From: Flavobacteriales bacterium
Lineage (GTDB): Bacteria > Bacteroidota > Bacteroidia > UBA10329
Assembly: GCA_021741075.1 (NCBI GenBank)
Contig: JAIOYO010000004.1
Location: forward strand, 23,908-87,907
Length of the DNA stretch: 64,000 bases
Reading direction: 5' to 3'
Notes under the pieces: model-generated
Told to the model about the DNA's origin: nothing
Databases searched by the model: none
What the model saw: only the letters and a program-made list of their open reading frames with translations
Shown here: piece by piece, positions 23,096 through 28,252 of the stretch
Position numbering within the stretch: the first letter of the stretch is position 1
How the letters are laid out: each line of letters begins with the position of its first letter
Program-made: the position numbers and the translations under genes

Positions 23096-23770
23096 ATGGA
23101 TCGTCCAGCAAAAGTCAGTCTTGATTTCGTCATTCTCAGCCCTATACAGAAAGGACTGTTCGGAGACAATGTCATTTCGGAAATGACCGAACACACGAGC
23201 GTATTTGTCACGCCCGATGTGCCTTTGGCAAATTTGAGTACAGCAAATGACGATCTTAAACTCAAAACACAGCAGGCATTAAGCGGAGATAAAGAGAAAA
23301 TACAAGAGCGCGATGTGGCAGAGCAGAAATGGATAGATACTTTTCGGAAGGAGGCAGAATATGTGCAACGTATAGCAGCAGGCAGTAAGCTCGTTATTAC
23401 GCAGAGTGGCTATCATAGCACCAGTACAGAAACACATGCGGCCACAAAACCAGATCAGGCCGATTTAGATGCATGGGGCAATAAAGGCAAGGGCAGTATT
23501 CATGCCGAGCTGAAGACATTGAAAGGAGCGAAGGGATTAGTTTATGTGGCCTCACCACAGCCCATCGACAGCACATCGCTGAGCCTCAAGAACGGACAAT
23601 TGCGCATAGCCAAAGAAGTGGCAAGCGACATGGAATTAATACTCACCACCAAGCGCAAGGTCGATTTCCAAGGACTTGTATCGGGCCAGACCTATTACAT
23701 AGCCGCCCTTGGTTTCAACACGGCCGGTGTAGGAGACATCAGCACGGTAATAGATGTGGTGGCGCCTTGA
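23096..23770 (+). CDS. hypothetical protein (helical N-half, FN3/Ig-like C-terminus), no signal peptide
   Basis: 224 aa. The C-terminus (VDFQGLVSGQTYYIAALGFNTAGVGDISTVIDVVAP) looks like a beta-sandwich end strand. First gene of the six-gene operon. Confidence 0.55.
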   Translation: MDRPAKVSLDFVILSPIQKGLFGDNVISEMTEHTSVFVTPDVPLANLSTANDDLKLKTQQALSGDKEKIQERDVAEQKWIDTFRKEAEYVQRIAAGSKLVITQSGYHSTSTETHAATKPDQADLDAWGNKGKGSIHAELKTLKGAKGLVYVASPQPIDSTSLSLKNGQLRIAKEVASDMELILTTKRKVDFQGLVSGQTYYIAALGFNTAGVGDISTVIDVVAP

Positions 23771-23771
23771 T

Positions 23772-23780
23772 GGGGGGGGG
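23772..23780. repeat. homopolymeric G9 tract
   Basis: TGA-T-GGGGGGGGG directly follows the stop of 23096-23770 and lies 27 nt before the next start. It is the longest G/C run I saw in the window. Confidence 0.95.
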
Positions 23781-23806
23781 AATAAGGAAGAAGGGGAAAA
23801 CGAAAA

Positions 23807-24214
23807 ATGAAAATGACAATGAAACGAATAGTGTTGCTTTTGGTCTTAGGAGGTATTATGAGCATAGCAGGTTCAGGATGTAGGAAAGAAGCAACGGTAT
23901 ATGGTTGCATGGATCCATCATCGGCCAATTATAATCCAGATGCCAACGTAGATAATGGAACCTGTCAATACACGGGTAGCGCTGTTTTCTGGTACAATTC
24001 AACGGGCACAACCGCAACAGTTAATGTCGGTGGACAAACGGGATACATTACTCAGTATTATTCATCCTATGACCCAGGCTGCGGTTCTGGAGGATGCGCA
24101 AATTTCACCTTGCCTACTGGTACTTATTCCTTCTATGCTTCCTCAACCTTTAGTACGTGGTCAGGCAACGTCACCATAACTAAGAATGGATGCTCCAAGA
24201 TGCTTTTGTATTGA
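23807..24214 (+). CDS. small Cys-rich lipoprotein, unknown function
   Basis: Lipobox IAGSGC. Contains the module GCMDPSSANYNPDANVDNGTCQY. Confidence 0.6.
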   Translation: MKMTMKRIVLLLVLGGIMSIAGSGCRKEATVYGCMDPSSANYNPDANVDNGTCQYTGSAVFWYNSTGTTATVNVGGQTGYITQYYSSYDPGCGSGGCANFTLPTGTYSFYASSTFSTWSGNVTITKNGCSKMLLY

Positions 24215-24304
24215 TCAGGCGATAGAGAATACGAATGAAATTAACAGCGTAAGCCGAAAAGCTGGGAGAGAGTAGGCAACAGAAGATTAAAACCACACAA
24301 CTAA

Positions 24305-25759: not shown

Positions 25760-25780
25760 CCACCAACCCATAAACAAACC

Positions 25781-26290
25781 ATGAAACACATAACCACAGC
25801 AATACTGGTGCTTTTCGTATCAAGTCTAGCCTTTGGTCAGGCCAGACGAAAAGCAGATAAAGACACAGAAAACTGGAGATATGAACTAGAAGTAGTAAAC
25901 GAAGGAGCACAAGGAACCTATCTTATCAAAATATGGTCCTACTCCAAAAAACCTCAAGTGGCATTTGAACAAGCAAAGAAAAATGCAGTACACGGCATCG
26001 TATTCAAAGGATATACCGGAGCCGGAAGAATAAAAGGTCAAAAGGCATTGGTACAAGATCCAAGTGCCGAAATAACCCACGAAGCATTCTTTAAAGAATT
26101 CTTTGCCGACAATGGCAAGTACATGAAGTTCGTGCAGCTTACCACCGATGGGGCCATCGCCCCAGGCGACATCATGAAAGCCGGTAAGAAAGAATACAAA
26201 GTAGGAATAGTGGTAGCCGTAAACAAAGACGATCTCCGAAACTACCTCGAGTCAGAAAAAATTATCCGCGGACTCTCCTCAGGGTTTTAA
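25781..26290 (+). CDS. secreted protein, unknown function (169 aa)
   Basis: Signal peptide AILVLFVSSLAFGQ. GTYLIKIWSYSKKPQVAFEQAKKNAVHGIVFKGY. 21-nt gap to the upstream gene. Confidence 0.6.
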   Translation: MKHITTAILVLFVSSLAFGQARRKADKDTENWRYELEVVNEGAQGTYLIKIWSYSKKPQVAFEQAKKNAVHGIVFKGYTGAGRIKGQKALVQDPSAEITHEAFFKEFFADNGKYMKFVQLTTDGAIAPGDIMKAGKKEYKVGIVVAVNKDDLRNYLESEKIIRGLSSGF

Positions 26291-26307
26291 AGCAAACAAT
26301 TATCGAA

Positions 26308-27252
26308 ATGAAACACACCCTAACTACATGCTTTATAGTATGCACAACAGTTTTGTTGAGCCTTGGTCAAACTGCTAAAAAACCAACCATCATGATCGCA
26401 CCAGCAGATGACTGGATGACATCTAAAGGTTTTATGGACAAGGTCGATAATCAAGGAACCGTAGAATATGTTCCCAATTACGACAAAGCATTTCATGAAT
26501 ATCCACAACTCAATAATATCATCACAGCTATAGATAGAGCAATGATTGATAGAGGATTTCCAACGCAACGCCTAAAGGAAACACTCGATGAAATGAAAGA
26601 ACAAGCAGCAGAAGACAACTACCTCCAATCAAAAACAGGAGACGGCATCAGCGAAAACATCATCGATCAACTAGCCAAAACAGCCAAAGCAGATATTTGG
26701 ATGAAAGTATTCTGGGAAGTAAAAACCATTGGACCTAAAAAACAAGTAACCTTCAGGCTTGATGGAATAGATTCCTATACAAATAAAGCCGTTGCAACCG
26801 AACTAGGAACCGGGGCAGCTTCATTTTCTGCCACCGAAGACGTTTTGGTTGAAGAAGCCGTCATAGCAAACATGGACGGATTCAATTCACGACTACAAGC
26901 AACATTCGATAAATGGTTTACCGAAGGAAGAGAAATATCCTTGAGAATTAAAACATGGAGTGCTTGGGAATATGATCTAGAAAGCGAAGATTTTGGCGAT
27001 GCCGAATTGAATATCCTCATCGAAACATGGATTGAGAACAATGCCAACAATTCCCCCAACATTTCAGTCTCAACCCAAAACCAGATGGTGATAAAAGAAT
27101 TGCGAATTCCCATGTTAGATGAAAAAGGAAAAGGAAACGATGCCAAGAAATGGGCAAGAGGACTTACAAGCTACCTCAAAGGACTCGGTATTGAAGCCAA
27201 ACTCATGACCAAAGGCTTGGGTCAGGCACAATTGGTTCTCGGAGGTAAATAA
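26308..27252 (+). CDS. secreted protein, unknown function (314 aa; possibly DUF6175-like)
   Basis: Signal peptide, then KKPTIMIAPADDWM. The DUF6175 resemblance is from memory only. 17-nt gap upstream. Confidence 0.55.
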   Translation: MKHTLTTCFIVCTTVLLSLGQTAKKPTIMIAPADDWMTSKGFMDKVDNQGTVEYVPNYDKAFHEYPQLNNIITAIDRAMIDRGFPTQRLKETLDEMKEQAAEDNYLQSKTGDGISENIIDQLAKTAKADIWMKVFWEVKTIGPKKQVTFRLDGIDSYTNKAVATELGTGAASFSATEDVLVEEAVIANMDGFNSRLQATFDKWFTEGREISLRIKTWSAWEYDLESEDFGDAELNILIETWIENNANNSPNISVSTQNQMVIKELRIPMLDEKGKGNDAKKWARGLTSYLKGLGIEAKLMTKGLGQAQLVLGGK

Positions 27253-27271
27253 CAATCAAATAAGGAAAAGA

Positions 27272-28252
27272 ATGAAAAAGCAACTCATCATAACCATCTG
27301 TGCCTTTTTATGTGGTTTCACCTCCACAAAATCTCAAGCCCAGAATACACTAGGCAAGACCGAAGACCTAGGCCGTATTGTAATTACAAGTTACGTTTCC
27401 CCACAAATAGAGGGCTTGCCTGCATCCGCAGAAAGCATGTTGATCAGTAAAATGAGTCAAATTGCTTCCGCTAATGGCCTTGGAGGAAGTGCACTGAATT
27501 CAAGATTCATCATCACCCCAAACATCACCGTCATTAACAAGGATATTACACCAACCGCACCCCCCATGCATGCCTATACCTTAGAAGTAACCTTCTTCAT
27601 AGGCGATGGTATTGACGGAACCAAGTTCGCAAGCACATCCTTGGAGGTAAAAGGGGCAGGCACCAACGAGACCAAAGCTTACATAAGTGCATTAAAACAA
27701 ATAAACCCCAACAACTCCGATTTATTGGCATTGGTAGAAAAAGGAAAGGTTAAAATAGTCGAATACTATAATTCTCGCTGCGATTTCATCATCAAAGAAG
27801 CTCAAGCTCTTGAAGGACAACAGAAATTCGATGAAGCCATCTACAAACTTACAGGCGTACCAGAAGTTTGTAAAGAGTGTTTCGACAAAAGCATGGATGC
27901 CGTTGCTCCCATCTATCAGAAACAGATAGATAGAGATTGCGAAATACAATTAACCAAAGCACAAAACGCCTGGAACAGTGGACAAGACACTCGTTCAGCT
28001 GATGAAGCAGCAAGCTATTTAGCACATATAGAGCCTGCAGCAGCTTGCTACACAAAGGCAGGGGCACTATCAAAGACAATAGCAGCCAGAGTGAAAGAAT
28101 TAGACCAACGAGAATGGAACTTCAAACTCAAGGAACAACAAGATGAAGTAAACATCAGAAAAGCCACCATTGCTGCAGCCAGAGATGTGGGCGTTGCATA
28201 CGGAAACAATCAACCAAAATCGGTTACTTATAATGTGAGTGGGTGGTGGTAG
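27272..28252 (+). CDS. secreted protein, unknown function (326 aa, six Cys including CKEC)
   Basis: Signal peptide ICAFLCGFTSTKSQAQ. Cys pattern C..VPEVCKEC..C..AAAC. Ends GWW. 19-nt gap upstream. Confidence 0.6.
   Translation: MKKQLIITICAFLCGFTSTKSQAQNTLGKTEDLGRIVITSYVSPQIEGLPASAESMLISKMSQIASANGLGGSALNSRFIITPNITVINKDITPTAPPMHAYTLEVTFFIGDGIDGTKFASTSLEVKGAGTNETKAYISALKQINPNNSDLLALVEKGKVKIVEYYNSRCDFIIKEAQALEGQQKFDEAIYKLTGVPEVCKECFDKSMDAVAPIYQKQIDRDCEIQLTKAQNAWNSGQDTRSADEAASYLAHIEPAAACYTKAGALSKTIAARVKELDQREWNFKLKEQQDEVNIRKATIAAARDVGVAYGNNQPKSVTYNVSGWW

What the first reader, a model, noticed from the sequence alone, without database searches (positions are those of the whole stretch)
23096..28252. 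Six-gene operon of exported proteins with no assignable function (top candidate for an undescribed envelope system)
Six co-directional ORFs (224, 135, 484, 169, 314 and 326 aa) are separated by gaps of only 36, 90, 21, 17 and 19 nt, so they probably form one transcript.
- Five of the six have clear N-terminal signal peptides. One of these is a lipoprotein with lipobox GSGC. The first protein has no signal peptide and ends in a beta-sandwich-like segment.
- I can read no nucleotide-binding, catalytic, TonB-box, beta-barrel-terminus or T9SS-CTD motif in any of them.
- Distinctive strings are KYRRSSLHTVLV (484 aa), GTYLIKIWSYSKKP...HGIVFKGY (169 aa), KKPTIMIAPADDWM (314 aa), and a six-Cys pattern with CKEC in the 326-aa protein.
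- From memory, similar 169/314/326-aa proteins occur as conserved hypotheticals in other Bacteroidota, and the 314-aa one may match DUF6175. I cannot verify either point here.
- The operon sits behind a 585-bp intergenic region holding a phased tandem-repeat array, and it contains a G9 tract after gene 1.

My inference is a periplasmic or outer-membrane multiprotein assembly of unknown role.
Basis: partly seen in the sequence, partly recalled or inferred. Interest (0 to 1): 0.72.

Follow-up and report, generated by a model that had tools for sequence, protein, structure and literature searches.

The report
Conserved Bacteroidota exported four-protein envelope cassette
Four of the six genes form a cassette of exported proteins that is widespread in Bacteroidota, has never been studied, and whose two modelled members fold like the ring-forming proteins that sit under the outer membrane in curli, Pel and flagellar H-ring systems; the other two genes are lineage-specific neighbours.

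Summary
All six ORFs, their spacing, the DUF6175 match, the tandem repeat and the G9 tract are real. The "six-gene operon" is not one unit.

- **Conserved core.** Only g3-g4-g5-g6 (24305-28252) are conserved. They are colinear in 75-80 of 80 Bacteroidota loci, usually with a fifth gene, a lipoprotein paralogue of g4 that the window lacks.
- **g1 and g2.** They have no relatives in any related locus, and g2 is not upstream of g3 in the closest relative (89-94% identity).
- **Separate leader.** An Rfam DUF805b cis-regulatory RNA motif (24244-24278) lies between g2 and g3. The same clan of motif precedes G3 in about 20 other loci.
- **Families.** Only g5 has a Pfam family (DUF6175).
- **Folds.** AlphaFold2 plus Foldseek places g5 with CsgG, PelC, GNA1162, PqiC-like DUF330, LpoB and FlgT. 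g3 matches FlgT only weakly.
- **Evidence for a complex.** Eight representative protein clusters are natural G4-DUF6175 fusions. Small outer-membrane beta-barrel genes flank the cassette in about a quarter of loci.

Best reading: a Sec-exported hetero-oligomeric complex, probably ring-like, under the outer membrane. Its job is unknown: scaffold, export accessory or synthase regulator. No paper in the searched library describes it. It is a new variant of a known structural kind, of moderate interest.

The parts
24244..24278 (+). DUF805b RNA motif (Rfam RF02914, clan CL00115): a short hairpin (CAGC...GCUG) followed by GAGAGUAGG. It ends 27 nt before the g3 TTG start and is the leader of the cassette.
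   Evidence: 43.4 bits against a gathering score of 35.6, E 5e-10, full-length match. The same motif precedes G3 in L084. The two-hairpin DUF805 form precedes G3 in L001, L035, L054 and L056. My own covariance model finds it upstream of G3 in 15 loci. 5 of 7 base pairs covary.
24305..25759 (+). G3, 484 aa (TTG start), Sec signal peptide. Predicted alpha/beta core plus a C-terminal small beta-barrel. First gene of the conserved cassette.
   Evidence: Colinear in 75/80 loci. 978 homologue clusters, all unnamed and without Pfam domains. AF2 model pLDDT 80, pTM 0.77. The best Foldseek PDB hits are FlgT 3w1e (E 1e-3, prob 0.69) and the FlgT chain of the LPHT ring 8z5n.
25781..26290 (+). G4 (G4a type), 169 aa, Sec signal peptide, invariant C-terminal Phe. 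Most genomes carry a second, lipoprotein paralogue (G4b) directly downstream, which the window lacks.
   Evidence: Present in 78/80 loci. G4a and G4b are related at hhalign probability 99.9%. The five-gene form occurs in 52/81 loci and the four-gene form in 16/81. 835 representative relatives; 8 representative clusters are G4-DUF6175 fusions. C-terminal F in 34/34.
26308..27252 (+). G5, 314 aa, DUF6175, Sec signal peptide (not a lipoprotein). Two alpha/beta domains, the first CsgG/PelC/LpoB-like.
   Evidence: Pfam PF19672, E 1.2e-91. AF2 model pLDDT 85, pTM 0.75. Foldseek hits: CsgG 4uv2 (E 2e-4, prob 1.0), PelC 5t0z/5t11 (prob 1.0, TMt about 0.55), GNA1162, DUF330 2iqi, FlgT, LpoB, HpaA. No lipobox in 0/23 homologues.
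27272..28252 (+). G6, 326 aa, Sec signal peptide. From the sequence I infer an N-terminal alpha/beta-like region and a helical middle part carrying 4-5 conserved Cys. The C-terminus is aromatic (WW here). Last gene of the cassette.
   Evidence: Present in 80/80 loci. 1566 homologue clusters, all unnamed. Cys conservation and the aromatic C-terminus (34/37) are. Only weak TPR/ARM-like Pfam hits in some members. No structure model was made.
23096..23770 (+). g1, 224 aa, no signal peptide. An adjacent gene that is NOT part of the conserved cassette.
   Evidence: No relative in 84 related loci, in phage records or in IMG/VR. Singleton cluster, annotated as hypothetical protein K9G41_01745. In-frame codon usage looks like a real gene.
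23807..24214 (+). g2, 135 aa, putative lipoprotein (…IAGSGC). An adjacent gene that is NOT part of the conserved cassette.
   Evidence: Found in 1/80 loci, and that hit is far from the cassette. Absent upstream of g3 in the 89-94% identical relative L084, where similarity starts only about 70 nt before g3. No IMG/VR relatives.

Best explanation
**Unit and location (shown).** g3-g4-g5-g6 is a self-contained cassette. It is preceded by a DUF805b-type RNA leader. All of its products are exported by the Sec pathway, cleaved by signal peptidase I before a Gln in the homologues.

**Assembly (inferred).** In the periplasm the products assemble into one hetero-oligomeric complex attached under the outer membrane.
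- The building blocks are the alpha/beta domains used by CsgG, PelC, PqiC, LpoB and FlgT. These are proteins that typically form homo-oligomeric rings or bind partners at the inner face of the outer membrane.
- G4 docks with its C-terminus next to the N-terminus of G5.
- In most genomes the complex is tethered by the lipoprotein paralogue G4b, or by a neighbouring small beta-barrel protein.
- In four-gene versions such as this window the anchor must be supplied otherwise.

**Role (my weakest step).** The complex is a passive structural or adaptor ring, comparable to a flagellar H-ring or PelC, rather than an enzyme or an energised transporter. No member carries a catalytic, nucleotide-binding or inner-membrane domain.

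**What is shown and what is inferred.** Shown: conservation, export signals, fold class of G5, the fusions, the RNA leader. Inferred: complex formation, ring shape, outer-membrane attachment, role.
For: - **Synteny.** G3-G4-(G4b)-G5-G6 is colinear in 75-80 of 80 loci from Flavobacteriales, Chitinophagales, Saprospiraceae, Bacteroidales, Cytophagales and Balneolaceae, with otherwise unrelated flanks.
- **Abundance.** At least 579 matches in a one-genome-per-species collection.
- **Fusions.** 8 representative clusters fuse G4 directly to DUF6175, and G4-G4 tandem fusions also exist.
- **Export.** All four families carry signal peptides with [AGS]Q. G6 has conserved Cys. Many G4b members carry a lipobox-like Cys near residue 20 (8/32 by my strict pattern).
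- **Fold.** A confident G5 model matches CsgG, PelC, GNA1162, DUF330, FlgT and LpoB. G3's top two hits are FlgT.
- **Outer-membrane link.** DUF3575 or OMP_b-brl genes are the only recurrent co-directional neighbours, about 18-20 of 67.
- **Own leader.**
- **H-ring precedent.** One periplasmic FlgT plus the lipoproteins FlgO and FlgP (PMC7990780).
Against: - No oligomer or complex was modelled or observed.
- TM-scores to known structures are low: 0.12-0.16 for G3 and 0.25-0.39 for G5 (up to about 0.55 when normalised on PelC).
- The G3-FlgT match is marginal (E 1e-3, prob 0.69).
- G4 and G6 have no fold assignment at all.
- In this window none of the four cassette proteins is a lipoprotein, and there is no G4b or flanking small OMP within 64 kb. 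Outer-membrane attachment here is therefore an assumption.
- The four families are not detectably related to each other at profile level.
- The fold class also includes non-ring proteins such as LpoB and the TolB N-terminal domain.
- G5 differs sharply (39%) between close relatives whose other three proteins are 74-88% identical. This is odd for a tightly fitted subunit.
Confidence: 0.5

Rival explanations
1. Export accessory. The complex funnels a polymer (exopolysaccharide, amyloid-like fibre or other surface material) to an outer-membrane pore. PelC does this for PelB and CsgG/E/F do it for curli. The neighbouring small beta-barrel, or an unlinked porin, would be the pore.
For: The best Foldseek matches of G5 are CsgG and PelC. 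As in the curli system, every component is Sec-exported and there is no energy source. Small OM beta-barrel genes flank the cassette in about a quarter of loci.
Against: No substrate, glycosyltransferase, polymerase or amyloid-like repeat protein is conserved next to the cassette. G5 is not lipidated and no CsgG Pfam match exists. The flanking barrels are about 200 aa, which by general knowledge of such barrels is too small for a polymer channel.
Confidence: 0.17
2. Regulator or adaptor of cell-wall or lipid-transport machines. The proteins act like LpoB (activator of PBP1B) or PqiC (outer-membrane partner of an MCE lipid bridge), linking the outer membrane to peptidoglycan synthesis or lipid homeostasis.
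For: G5 also matches LpoB (E 0.036, prob 0.72) and the PqiC-like DUF330 protein XCC0632 (E 1.4e-3, prob 0.9). One close lineage has a SPOR-domain (peptidoglycan-binding) gene directly upstream. To my knowledge Bacteroidota have no identified Lpo-type activators.
Against: No PBP, MCE or ABC gene is conserved nearby. The LpoB and DUF330 matches are weaker than those to CsgG and PelC. Four to five dedicated proteins would be many for an adaptor.
Confidence: 0.13
3. The six genes are one operon that acts together.
For: All six are on the same strand with short gaps, and the simple scan found no + strand terminator-like site inside the region. Read-through from g1-g2 into g3 cannot be excluded without RNA data.
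Against: g1 and g2 are absent from all related loci, including the nearest relative, where only the last 70 nt before g3 are conserved. Other close relatives have a different gene upstream. A cis-regulatory RNA motif that elsewhere sits 20-24 nt before the start codon of the next gene lies between g2 and g3.
Confidence: 0.08
4. Independent periplasmic proteins with no common complex, kept together only by co-regulation, for example stress-induced envelope proteins.
For: The families are unrelated at profile level. The DUF805-type leader also precedes many unrelated small membrane and stress-type genes. G5 can diverge independently of its neighbours.
Against: Fixed gene order across a whole phylum, together with recurrent G4-G5 and G4-G4 fusions, is hard to explain without physical interaction.
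Confidence: 0.1

Closest known systems
PelC (Pel exopolysaccharide system) and CsgG (curli secretion channel)
   Same: The fold of the first domain of G5 (Foldseek prob 1.0). All partners are Sec-exported, no energy source is encoded, and the expected location is under the outer membrane.
   Different: G5 is not a lipoprotein, has a second domain, and has no Pfam CsgG match. No pel or csg partner genes and no substrate genes are present. Oligomeric state is unknown.
Vibrio flagellar H-ring proteins FlgT, FlgO and FlgP
   Same: FlgT gives the top fold hits for G3 and long (about 300-column) alignments to G5. Both are small sets of exported proteins that include a lipoprotein (G4b here; FlgO and FlgP there) and build, or may build, an outer-membrane-associated ring (PMC7990780).
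   Different: There are no flagellar genes around any locus, and Bacteroidota are not flagellated (general knowledge). No FlgT, FlgO or LPP20 Pfam hits. The G3 match is marginal. The resemblance of G4 to FlgP is only my impression from its sequence and is untested.
PqiC/DUF330 and LpoB outer-membrane lipoprotein adaptors
   Same: The same alpha/beta fold class. Both act as periplasmic adaptors at the outer membrane.
   Different: No MCE or PBP partner genes are nearby. The window's cassette proteins are not lipidated. The matches are weaker.
Pfam DUF6175 (PF19672)
   Same: g5 is a full-length member.
   Different: The Pfam entry carries no function. The other three cassette families have no Pfam entry at all.
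Rfam DUF805 / DUF805b RNA motifs (clan CL00115)
   Same: The window's leader scores above the DUF805b gathering threshold.
   Different: The downstream gene is not a DUF805 gene. In my metagenome sample only 5 of 102 downstream genes were DUF805.

Membership tests
Pfam DUF6175 (PF19672) | Score above the family's gathering threshold over the full model | tested here: met
   g5: 307 bits against a cut-off of 23, model positions 1-293 of 293.
CsgG family (curli channel) | Sequence match to the CsgG family model | tested here: not met
   No CsgG hit for g5 at E up to 1. No PDB sequence or profile hit.
CsgG family (curli channel) | N-terminal lipobox Cys (outer-membrane lipoprotein) | tested here: not met
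   g5 and 23/23 homologues have signal-peptidase-I-type ends (..GQAKKP) and none has a lipobox.
CsgG family (curli channel) | CsgG-like alpha/beta fold | tested here: met
   Foldseek against 4uv2: E 1.9e-4, prob 1.00, 200-237 aligned columns, TMt 0.33-0.40.
CsgG family (curli channel) | Nonameric ring with transmembrane beta-hairpins | not testable with these tools
   Only a monomer model was available. I did not inspect it for extended amphipathic hairpins.
CsgG family (curli channel) | Genomic association with csgE/csgF/csgA/csgB | tested here: not met
   No such families among the cassette members or the 67 adjacent genes.
PelC | PelC-like fold | tested here: met
   5t0z/5t11: prob 0.96-1.00, TM normalised on PelC 0.52-0.57.
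PelC | Lipoprotein encoded in a pelA-G operon | tested here: not met
   No lipobox. No pel genes in 81 loci.
FlgT (flagellar H-ring) | Sequence match to FlgT domain families | tested here: not met
   No FlgT family hit for g3 or 39 homologues, nor for g5.
FlgT (flagellar H-ring) | FlgT-like multi-domain fold | tested here: inconclusive
   g3: top hits 3w1e (E 1e-3, prob 0.69) and 8z5n_0 (E 5.6e-3), but TM 0.12-0.16. g5: prob 0.82-0.87, TM about 0.25.
FlgT (flagellar H-ring) | Flagellar gene context | tested here: not met
   No flagellar family among adjacent genes in the related loci.
LpoB | LpoB fold, lipoprotein, partner PBP1B | tested here: inconclusive
   Fold match 4q6l: E 0.036, prob 0.72. 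Not lipidated. Partner not testable.
LPP20/FlgP family (considered for G4) | Match to the LPP20 family model or fold | tested here: not met
   No LPP20 hit for g4 at E up to 1, nor for 32 G4b members at E up to 0.05. PDB profile searches found nothing.
Rfam DUF805b RNA (RF02914) | Covariance-model score above the gathering threshold | tested here: met
   43.4 bits against 35.6, model positions 1-35 of 35, at 24244-24278.
Rfam DUF805b RNA (RF02914) | Position upstream of a DUF805-domain gene (origin of the name) | tested here: not met
   g3 has no DUF805 domain. Downstream genes of the motif are heterogeneous, with DUF805 in 5/102.

The most novel reading that the evidence does not exclude
The cassette builds a previously unseen outer-membrane-associated periplasmic ring or disc in non-flagellated Bacteroidota. 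It would be made of CsgG/PelC/FlgT-fold subunits, structurally akin to the flagellar H-ring or basal disc but serving another purpose, such as outer-membrane stabilisation or a new export gate. If so, the flagellar accessory rings and this complex would descend from a common, older envelope scaffold. A side point: the DUF805/DUF805b RNA is a general leader that acts at a fixed distance from the start codon in a phylum that does not use Shine-Dalgarno pairing.
Probability: 0.2. Interest if true: 0.8.

Novelty: new variant of a known kind. Interest (0 to 1): 0.55.

Why it matters
Bacteroidota are dominant in gut, soil and marine communities, yet large parts of their envelope are uncharted.

- **A defined target.** This is a compact cassette found in at least several hundred species across all major orders.
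- **A testable idea.** Placing two of the proteins in the fold class of CsgG, PelC, PqiC, LpoB and FlgT narrows the hypothesis to an outer-membrane-proximal ring or adaptor complex. That can be tested by deletion, pull-down and cryo-ET.
- **Evolutionary interest.** If a ring is confirmed, it would bear on where flagellar accessory rings and secretion funnels came from.
- **Regulation.** The cassette gives a concrete, conserved operon in which to study the function of the DUF805/DUF805b RNA motif, for which I found no functional study.

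Tried and rejected
- **Family searches.** Pfam, NCBIfam, PADLOC and PHROGs scans of all six proteins and two neighbours gave only DUF6175 and MazG. Scanning every member of the G3, G6 and G4b alignments gave only scattered noise.
- **PDB sequence and profile searches** for G3, G4a, G4b, G5 and G6 found nothing credible.
- **Profile-profile comparisons** among the families showed only that G4a and G4b are related.
- **Literature searches** for DUF6175, DUF805, CsgG-like plus Bacteroidetes, the PelC/CsgG/LpoB/GNA1162 combination, and X-like fold terms found no paper on this cassette. The supplement of Weinberg 2017 is not held.
- **Phage or mobile origin of g1 and g2.** No matches in phage records or IMG/VR. 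The 42-bp repeat unit occurs only in this array.
- **Idea that the RNA motif starts at the transcription start of a canonical Bacteroidota promoter.** Rejected: exact TAnnTTTG occurs upstream in only 8 of 113 instances and at scattered distances.
- **Idea that the leader hairpin is thermodynamically special.** Rejected: z-score +1.1.
- **Idea that the motif marks a regulon specific to this cassette or to DUF805 genes.** Rejected.
- **Domain fusions in long variants.** One G4b-caspase (Peptidase_C14) fusion and a UVR-motif protein are single cases and not informative.
- **Search of the window for a second G4 copy or a flanking small OMP.** None found.

Full report
**Observation.**

Each has host-like codon usage only in its own frame, unlike the ORFs that run through the repeat array. 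The window comes from a Flavobacteriales MAG. The genes are annotated as hypothetical proteins: K9G41_01745 (g1), 01755 (g3), 01760 (g4) and 01770 (g6). g5 is named a DUF6175 family protein.
- g5 is a full-length DUF6175 protein, E 1.2e-91.
- The other five proteins have no hit in Pfam, NCBIfam, PADLOC or PHROGs.
- The upstream 42-bp x 4.9 and 21-bp x 2.1 arrays and the G9 tract at 23773-23781 are real.
- The 42-bp unit occurs nowhere else in the window or in IMG/VR.

**What is conserved.**

A scan of one genome per species with a DUF6175 alignment gave at least 579 confirmed matches, and 80 loci were kept.
- tblastn of the window proteins shows g3, g4, g5 and g6 in the same order in 75, 78, 80 and 80 of those loci. 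g1 is found in none. g2 is found once, and far from the cassette.
- Clustering all ORFs of the loci gave exactly four conserved families and no other widely shared neighbour.
- The commonest layout is G3-G4-G4'-G5-G6 (52 of 81). The window's four-gene layout is the second commonest (16 of 81).
- G4' (G4b) is a paralogue of G4 (hhalign 99.9%), and many members have a lipobox-like Cys near residue 20.
- The loci span Flavobacteriales, Chitinophagales, Saprospiraceae, many Bacteroidales families, Cytophagales and Balneolaceae.

**Operon boundaries.**

- In the closest relative (L084, 89-94% protein identity, same MazG gene downstream), DNA similarity to the window begins only about 70 nt before g3, and g2 is not there.
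- In the next relatives (74% G3 identity) a SPOR-domain gene sits upstream instead.
- Rfam places a DUF805b cis-regulatory RNA motif at 24244-24278, inside that conserved 70 nt (43.4 bits, gathering score 35.6).
- The related two-hairpin DUF805 motif, from the same Rfam clan, lies directly upstream of G3 in L001, L035, L054 and L056, and DUF805b lies there in L084.
- A covariance model built from twelve such leaders finds 15 upstream of G3. Five of seven base pairs show changes on both sides and 98% of cells are paired.
- By eye and by pattern, a few more loci carry the single-hairpin form.

So the cassette has its own conserved leader, and g1 and g2 are lineage-specific neighbours. Read-through from g1-g2 cannot be excluded without RNA data. 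The simple scan found no + strand terminator-like site in the region.

**The proteins.**

- All four families start with signal peptides that end in [AGS]Q in 21/23 to 37/37 members. From memory, this fits the reported preference of Bacteroidota signal peptidase I substrates for an N-terminal Gln.
- G6 has invariant C170 and C203 and nearly invariant C223 and C259, as expected for disulfides outside the cytoplasm.
- G4a always ends in Phe, and G6 almost always ends in Trp, Phe or Tyr.
- Profile searches against PDB sequences gave nothing.
- The families are not detectably related to each other.

**Folds.**

- The AlphaFold2 model of g5 (71 sequences; pLDDT 85, pTM 0.75) has two alpha/beta domains. 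Foldseek against the PDB returns CsgG in its pre-pore form (E 2e-4, prob 1.0), PelC (prob 1.0, TM about 0.55 on PelC), GNA1162, the PqiC-like DUF330 protein XCC0632, FlgT (prob 0.82-0.87 over about 300 columns), LpoB and HpaA.
- The model of g3 (90 sequences; pLDDT 80, pTM 0.77) has an alpha/beta core and a C-terminal small beta-barrel. Its only near-significant hits are FlgT (3w1e, E 1e-3, prob 0.69) and the FlgT chain of the Vibrio LPHT ring (8z5n), with low TM-scores. I treat the G3-FlgT link as a lead, not a result.
- The shared theme of these matches is proteins that sit at the periplasmic face of the outer membrane, most of which form rings. In Vibrio, the H-ring is made of periplasmic FlgT plus the lipoproteins FlgO and FlgP (PMC7990780).

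**Evidence for a complex.**

- A phmmer search of g4 against 1.84 billion representatives found 835 relatives.
- Eight of the listed representative clusters are 463-520-aa proteins in which a G4 domain is followed directly by a complete DUF6175 domain. Tandem G4-G4 proteins also occur.
- Such fusions, with the fixed gene order, argue that G4 and G5 touch each other, with the G4 C-terminus next to the G5 N-terminus.
- Of 67 adjacent co-directional genes, the only recurrent families are small outer-membrane beta-barrels: DUF3575 in 12, OMP_b-brl in 8 and OMP_b-brl_2 in 6, with overlaps. The rest are unrelated housekeeping genes.
- The window has no second G4 and no such barrel within 64 kb.

**Interpretation.**

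The best-supported reading is a Sec-exported, hetero-oligomeric, probably ring-like complex under the outer membrane. It has no enzyme and no energy source, so it would act as a scaffold or adaptor (confidence about 0.5 for the complex; the role is open). The rivals are:
- a PelC/CsgG-like export funnel;
- an LpoB/PqiC-like adaptor for cell-wall or lipid machines;
- co-regulated but independent periplasmic proteins;
- the original six-gene operon.

None of the proteins qualifies as a member of the CsgG, PelC, FlgT or LpoB families. Sequence models do not match, G5 is not lipidated, and the defining partner genes are absent. The resemblance is at the level of fold and of likely way of working.

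**Side finding on the RNA motif.**

- A metagenome scan for the second hairpin plus GAGTAG returned more than 120 instances.
- The next ORF starts 20-24 nt after GAGTAG in most of them.
- The genes are very mixed: DUF805 5, AHSA1 5, TM2 5, TRL 4, T9SS-CTD 4, SCO4226-like 3 and rhodopsin 2, out of 102. None was a G3 homologue.
- The motif therefore looks like a general leader placed at a fixed distance from the start codon, not a DUF805-specific or cassette-specific element.
- It is not at a fixed distance from a canonical TAnnTTTG box. The window's hairpin has no special stability.

**Novelty and score.**

No paper in the searched library mentions DUF6175 or this cassette. The structural kind is known. 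The cassette, three of its four protein families and its link to the DUF805-type leader are undescribed. I rate it a new variant of a known kind, interest 0.55. It is widespread, cleanly delimited and now testable, but its function is still inferred from fold resemblance and gene context only.

Noticed in passing
window 24244-24278; loci L085-L204: The DUF805/DUF805b RNA motif precedes very diverse genes: DUF805, AHSA1, TM2, TRL, T9SS-CTD proteins, rhodopsins and others. The next start codon lies 20-24 nt after GAGTAG in most cases. It looks like a generic Bacteroidota leader at fixed spacing rather than a gene-specific element.
   Followed up: partly
window 26308-27252 vs L081:6214-7191: The window's G5 is only 39% identical to G5 of a close relative whose G3, G4 and G6 are 74-88% identical. 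The two signal peptides are still about 67% identical. This suggests fast divergence or partial replacement of the mature part.
   Followed up: partly
window 22748-22994: A tandem array (21 bp x 2.1, then 42 bp x 4.9, 95% matches) lies in the 585-bp region between the divergent 519-aa gene and g1. The unit occurs only here in the window and not in IMG/VR. ORFs through it lack coding signal.
   Followed up: partly
window 23773-23781: A G9 homopolymer lies 2 nt after the g1 stop codon and 25 nt before the g2 start. It is a possible slipped-strand site affecting the lipoprotein gene g2.
   Followed up: no
loci L009, L014, L015, L026, L029, L030, L037, L044, L045, L047, L051, L052 (downstream of G6); L020, L022, L024, L074 and others (upstream of G3): Small outer-membrane beta-barrel genes (DUF3575 downstream, OMP_b-brl_2 upstream), each about 200 aa, abut the cassette on the same strand in about a quarter of loci.
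   Followed up: partly
L056:2324-3691: In one locus the G4b-position gene is fused to a Peptidase_C14 (caspase) domain, E 1.8e-20.
   Followed up: no
L081:3221-4159: In the 74%-identity relatives, a 312-aa protein with a C-terminal SPOR (peptidoglycan-binding) domain sits directly upstream of G3.
   Followed up: no
window 36552-36645 (-): TPP riboswitch, 67.2 bits, E 5e-11. It overlaps the first codons of a long minus-strand ORF that my ATG-based ORF call places at 34192-36567.
   Followed up: no
window 20950-22509 (-) and 19938-20867 (-): The 519-aa protein and the 309-aa putative lipoprotein upstream have no hit in Pfam or NCBIfam. The 519-aa protein also has none in PADLOC or PHROGs and is a singleton at 90% identity.
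   Followed up: no
L024:8826-8905: A Flavo-1 sRNA (79 bits) lies a few kb downstream of the cassette in a Flavobacterium MAG.
   Followed up: no
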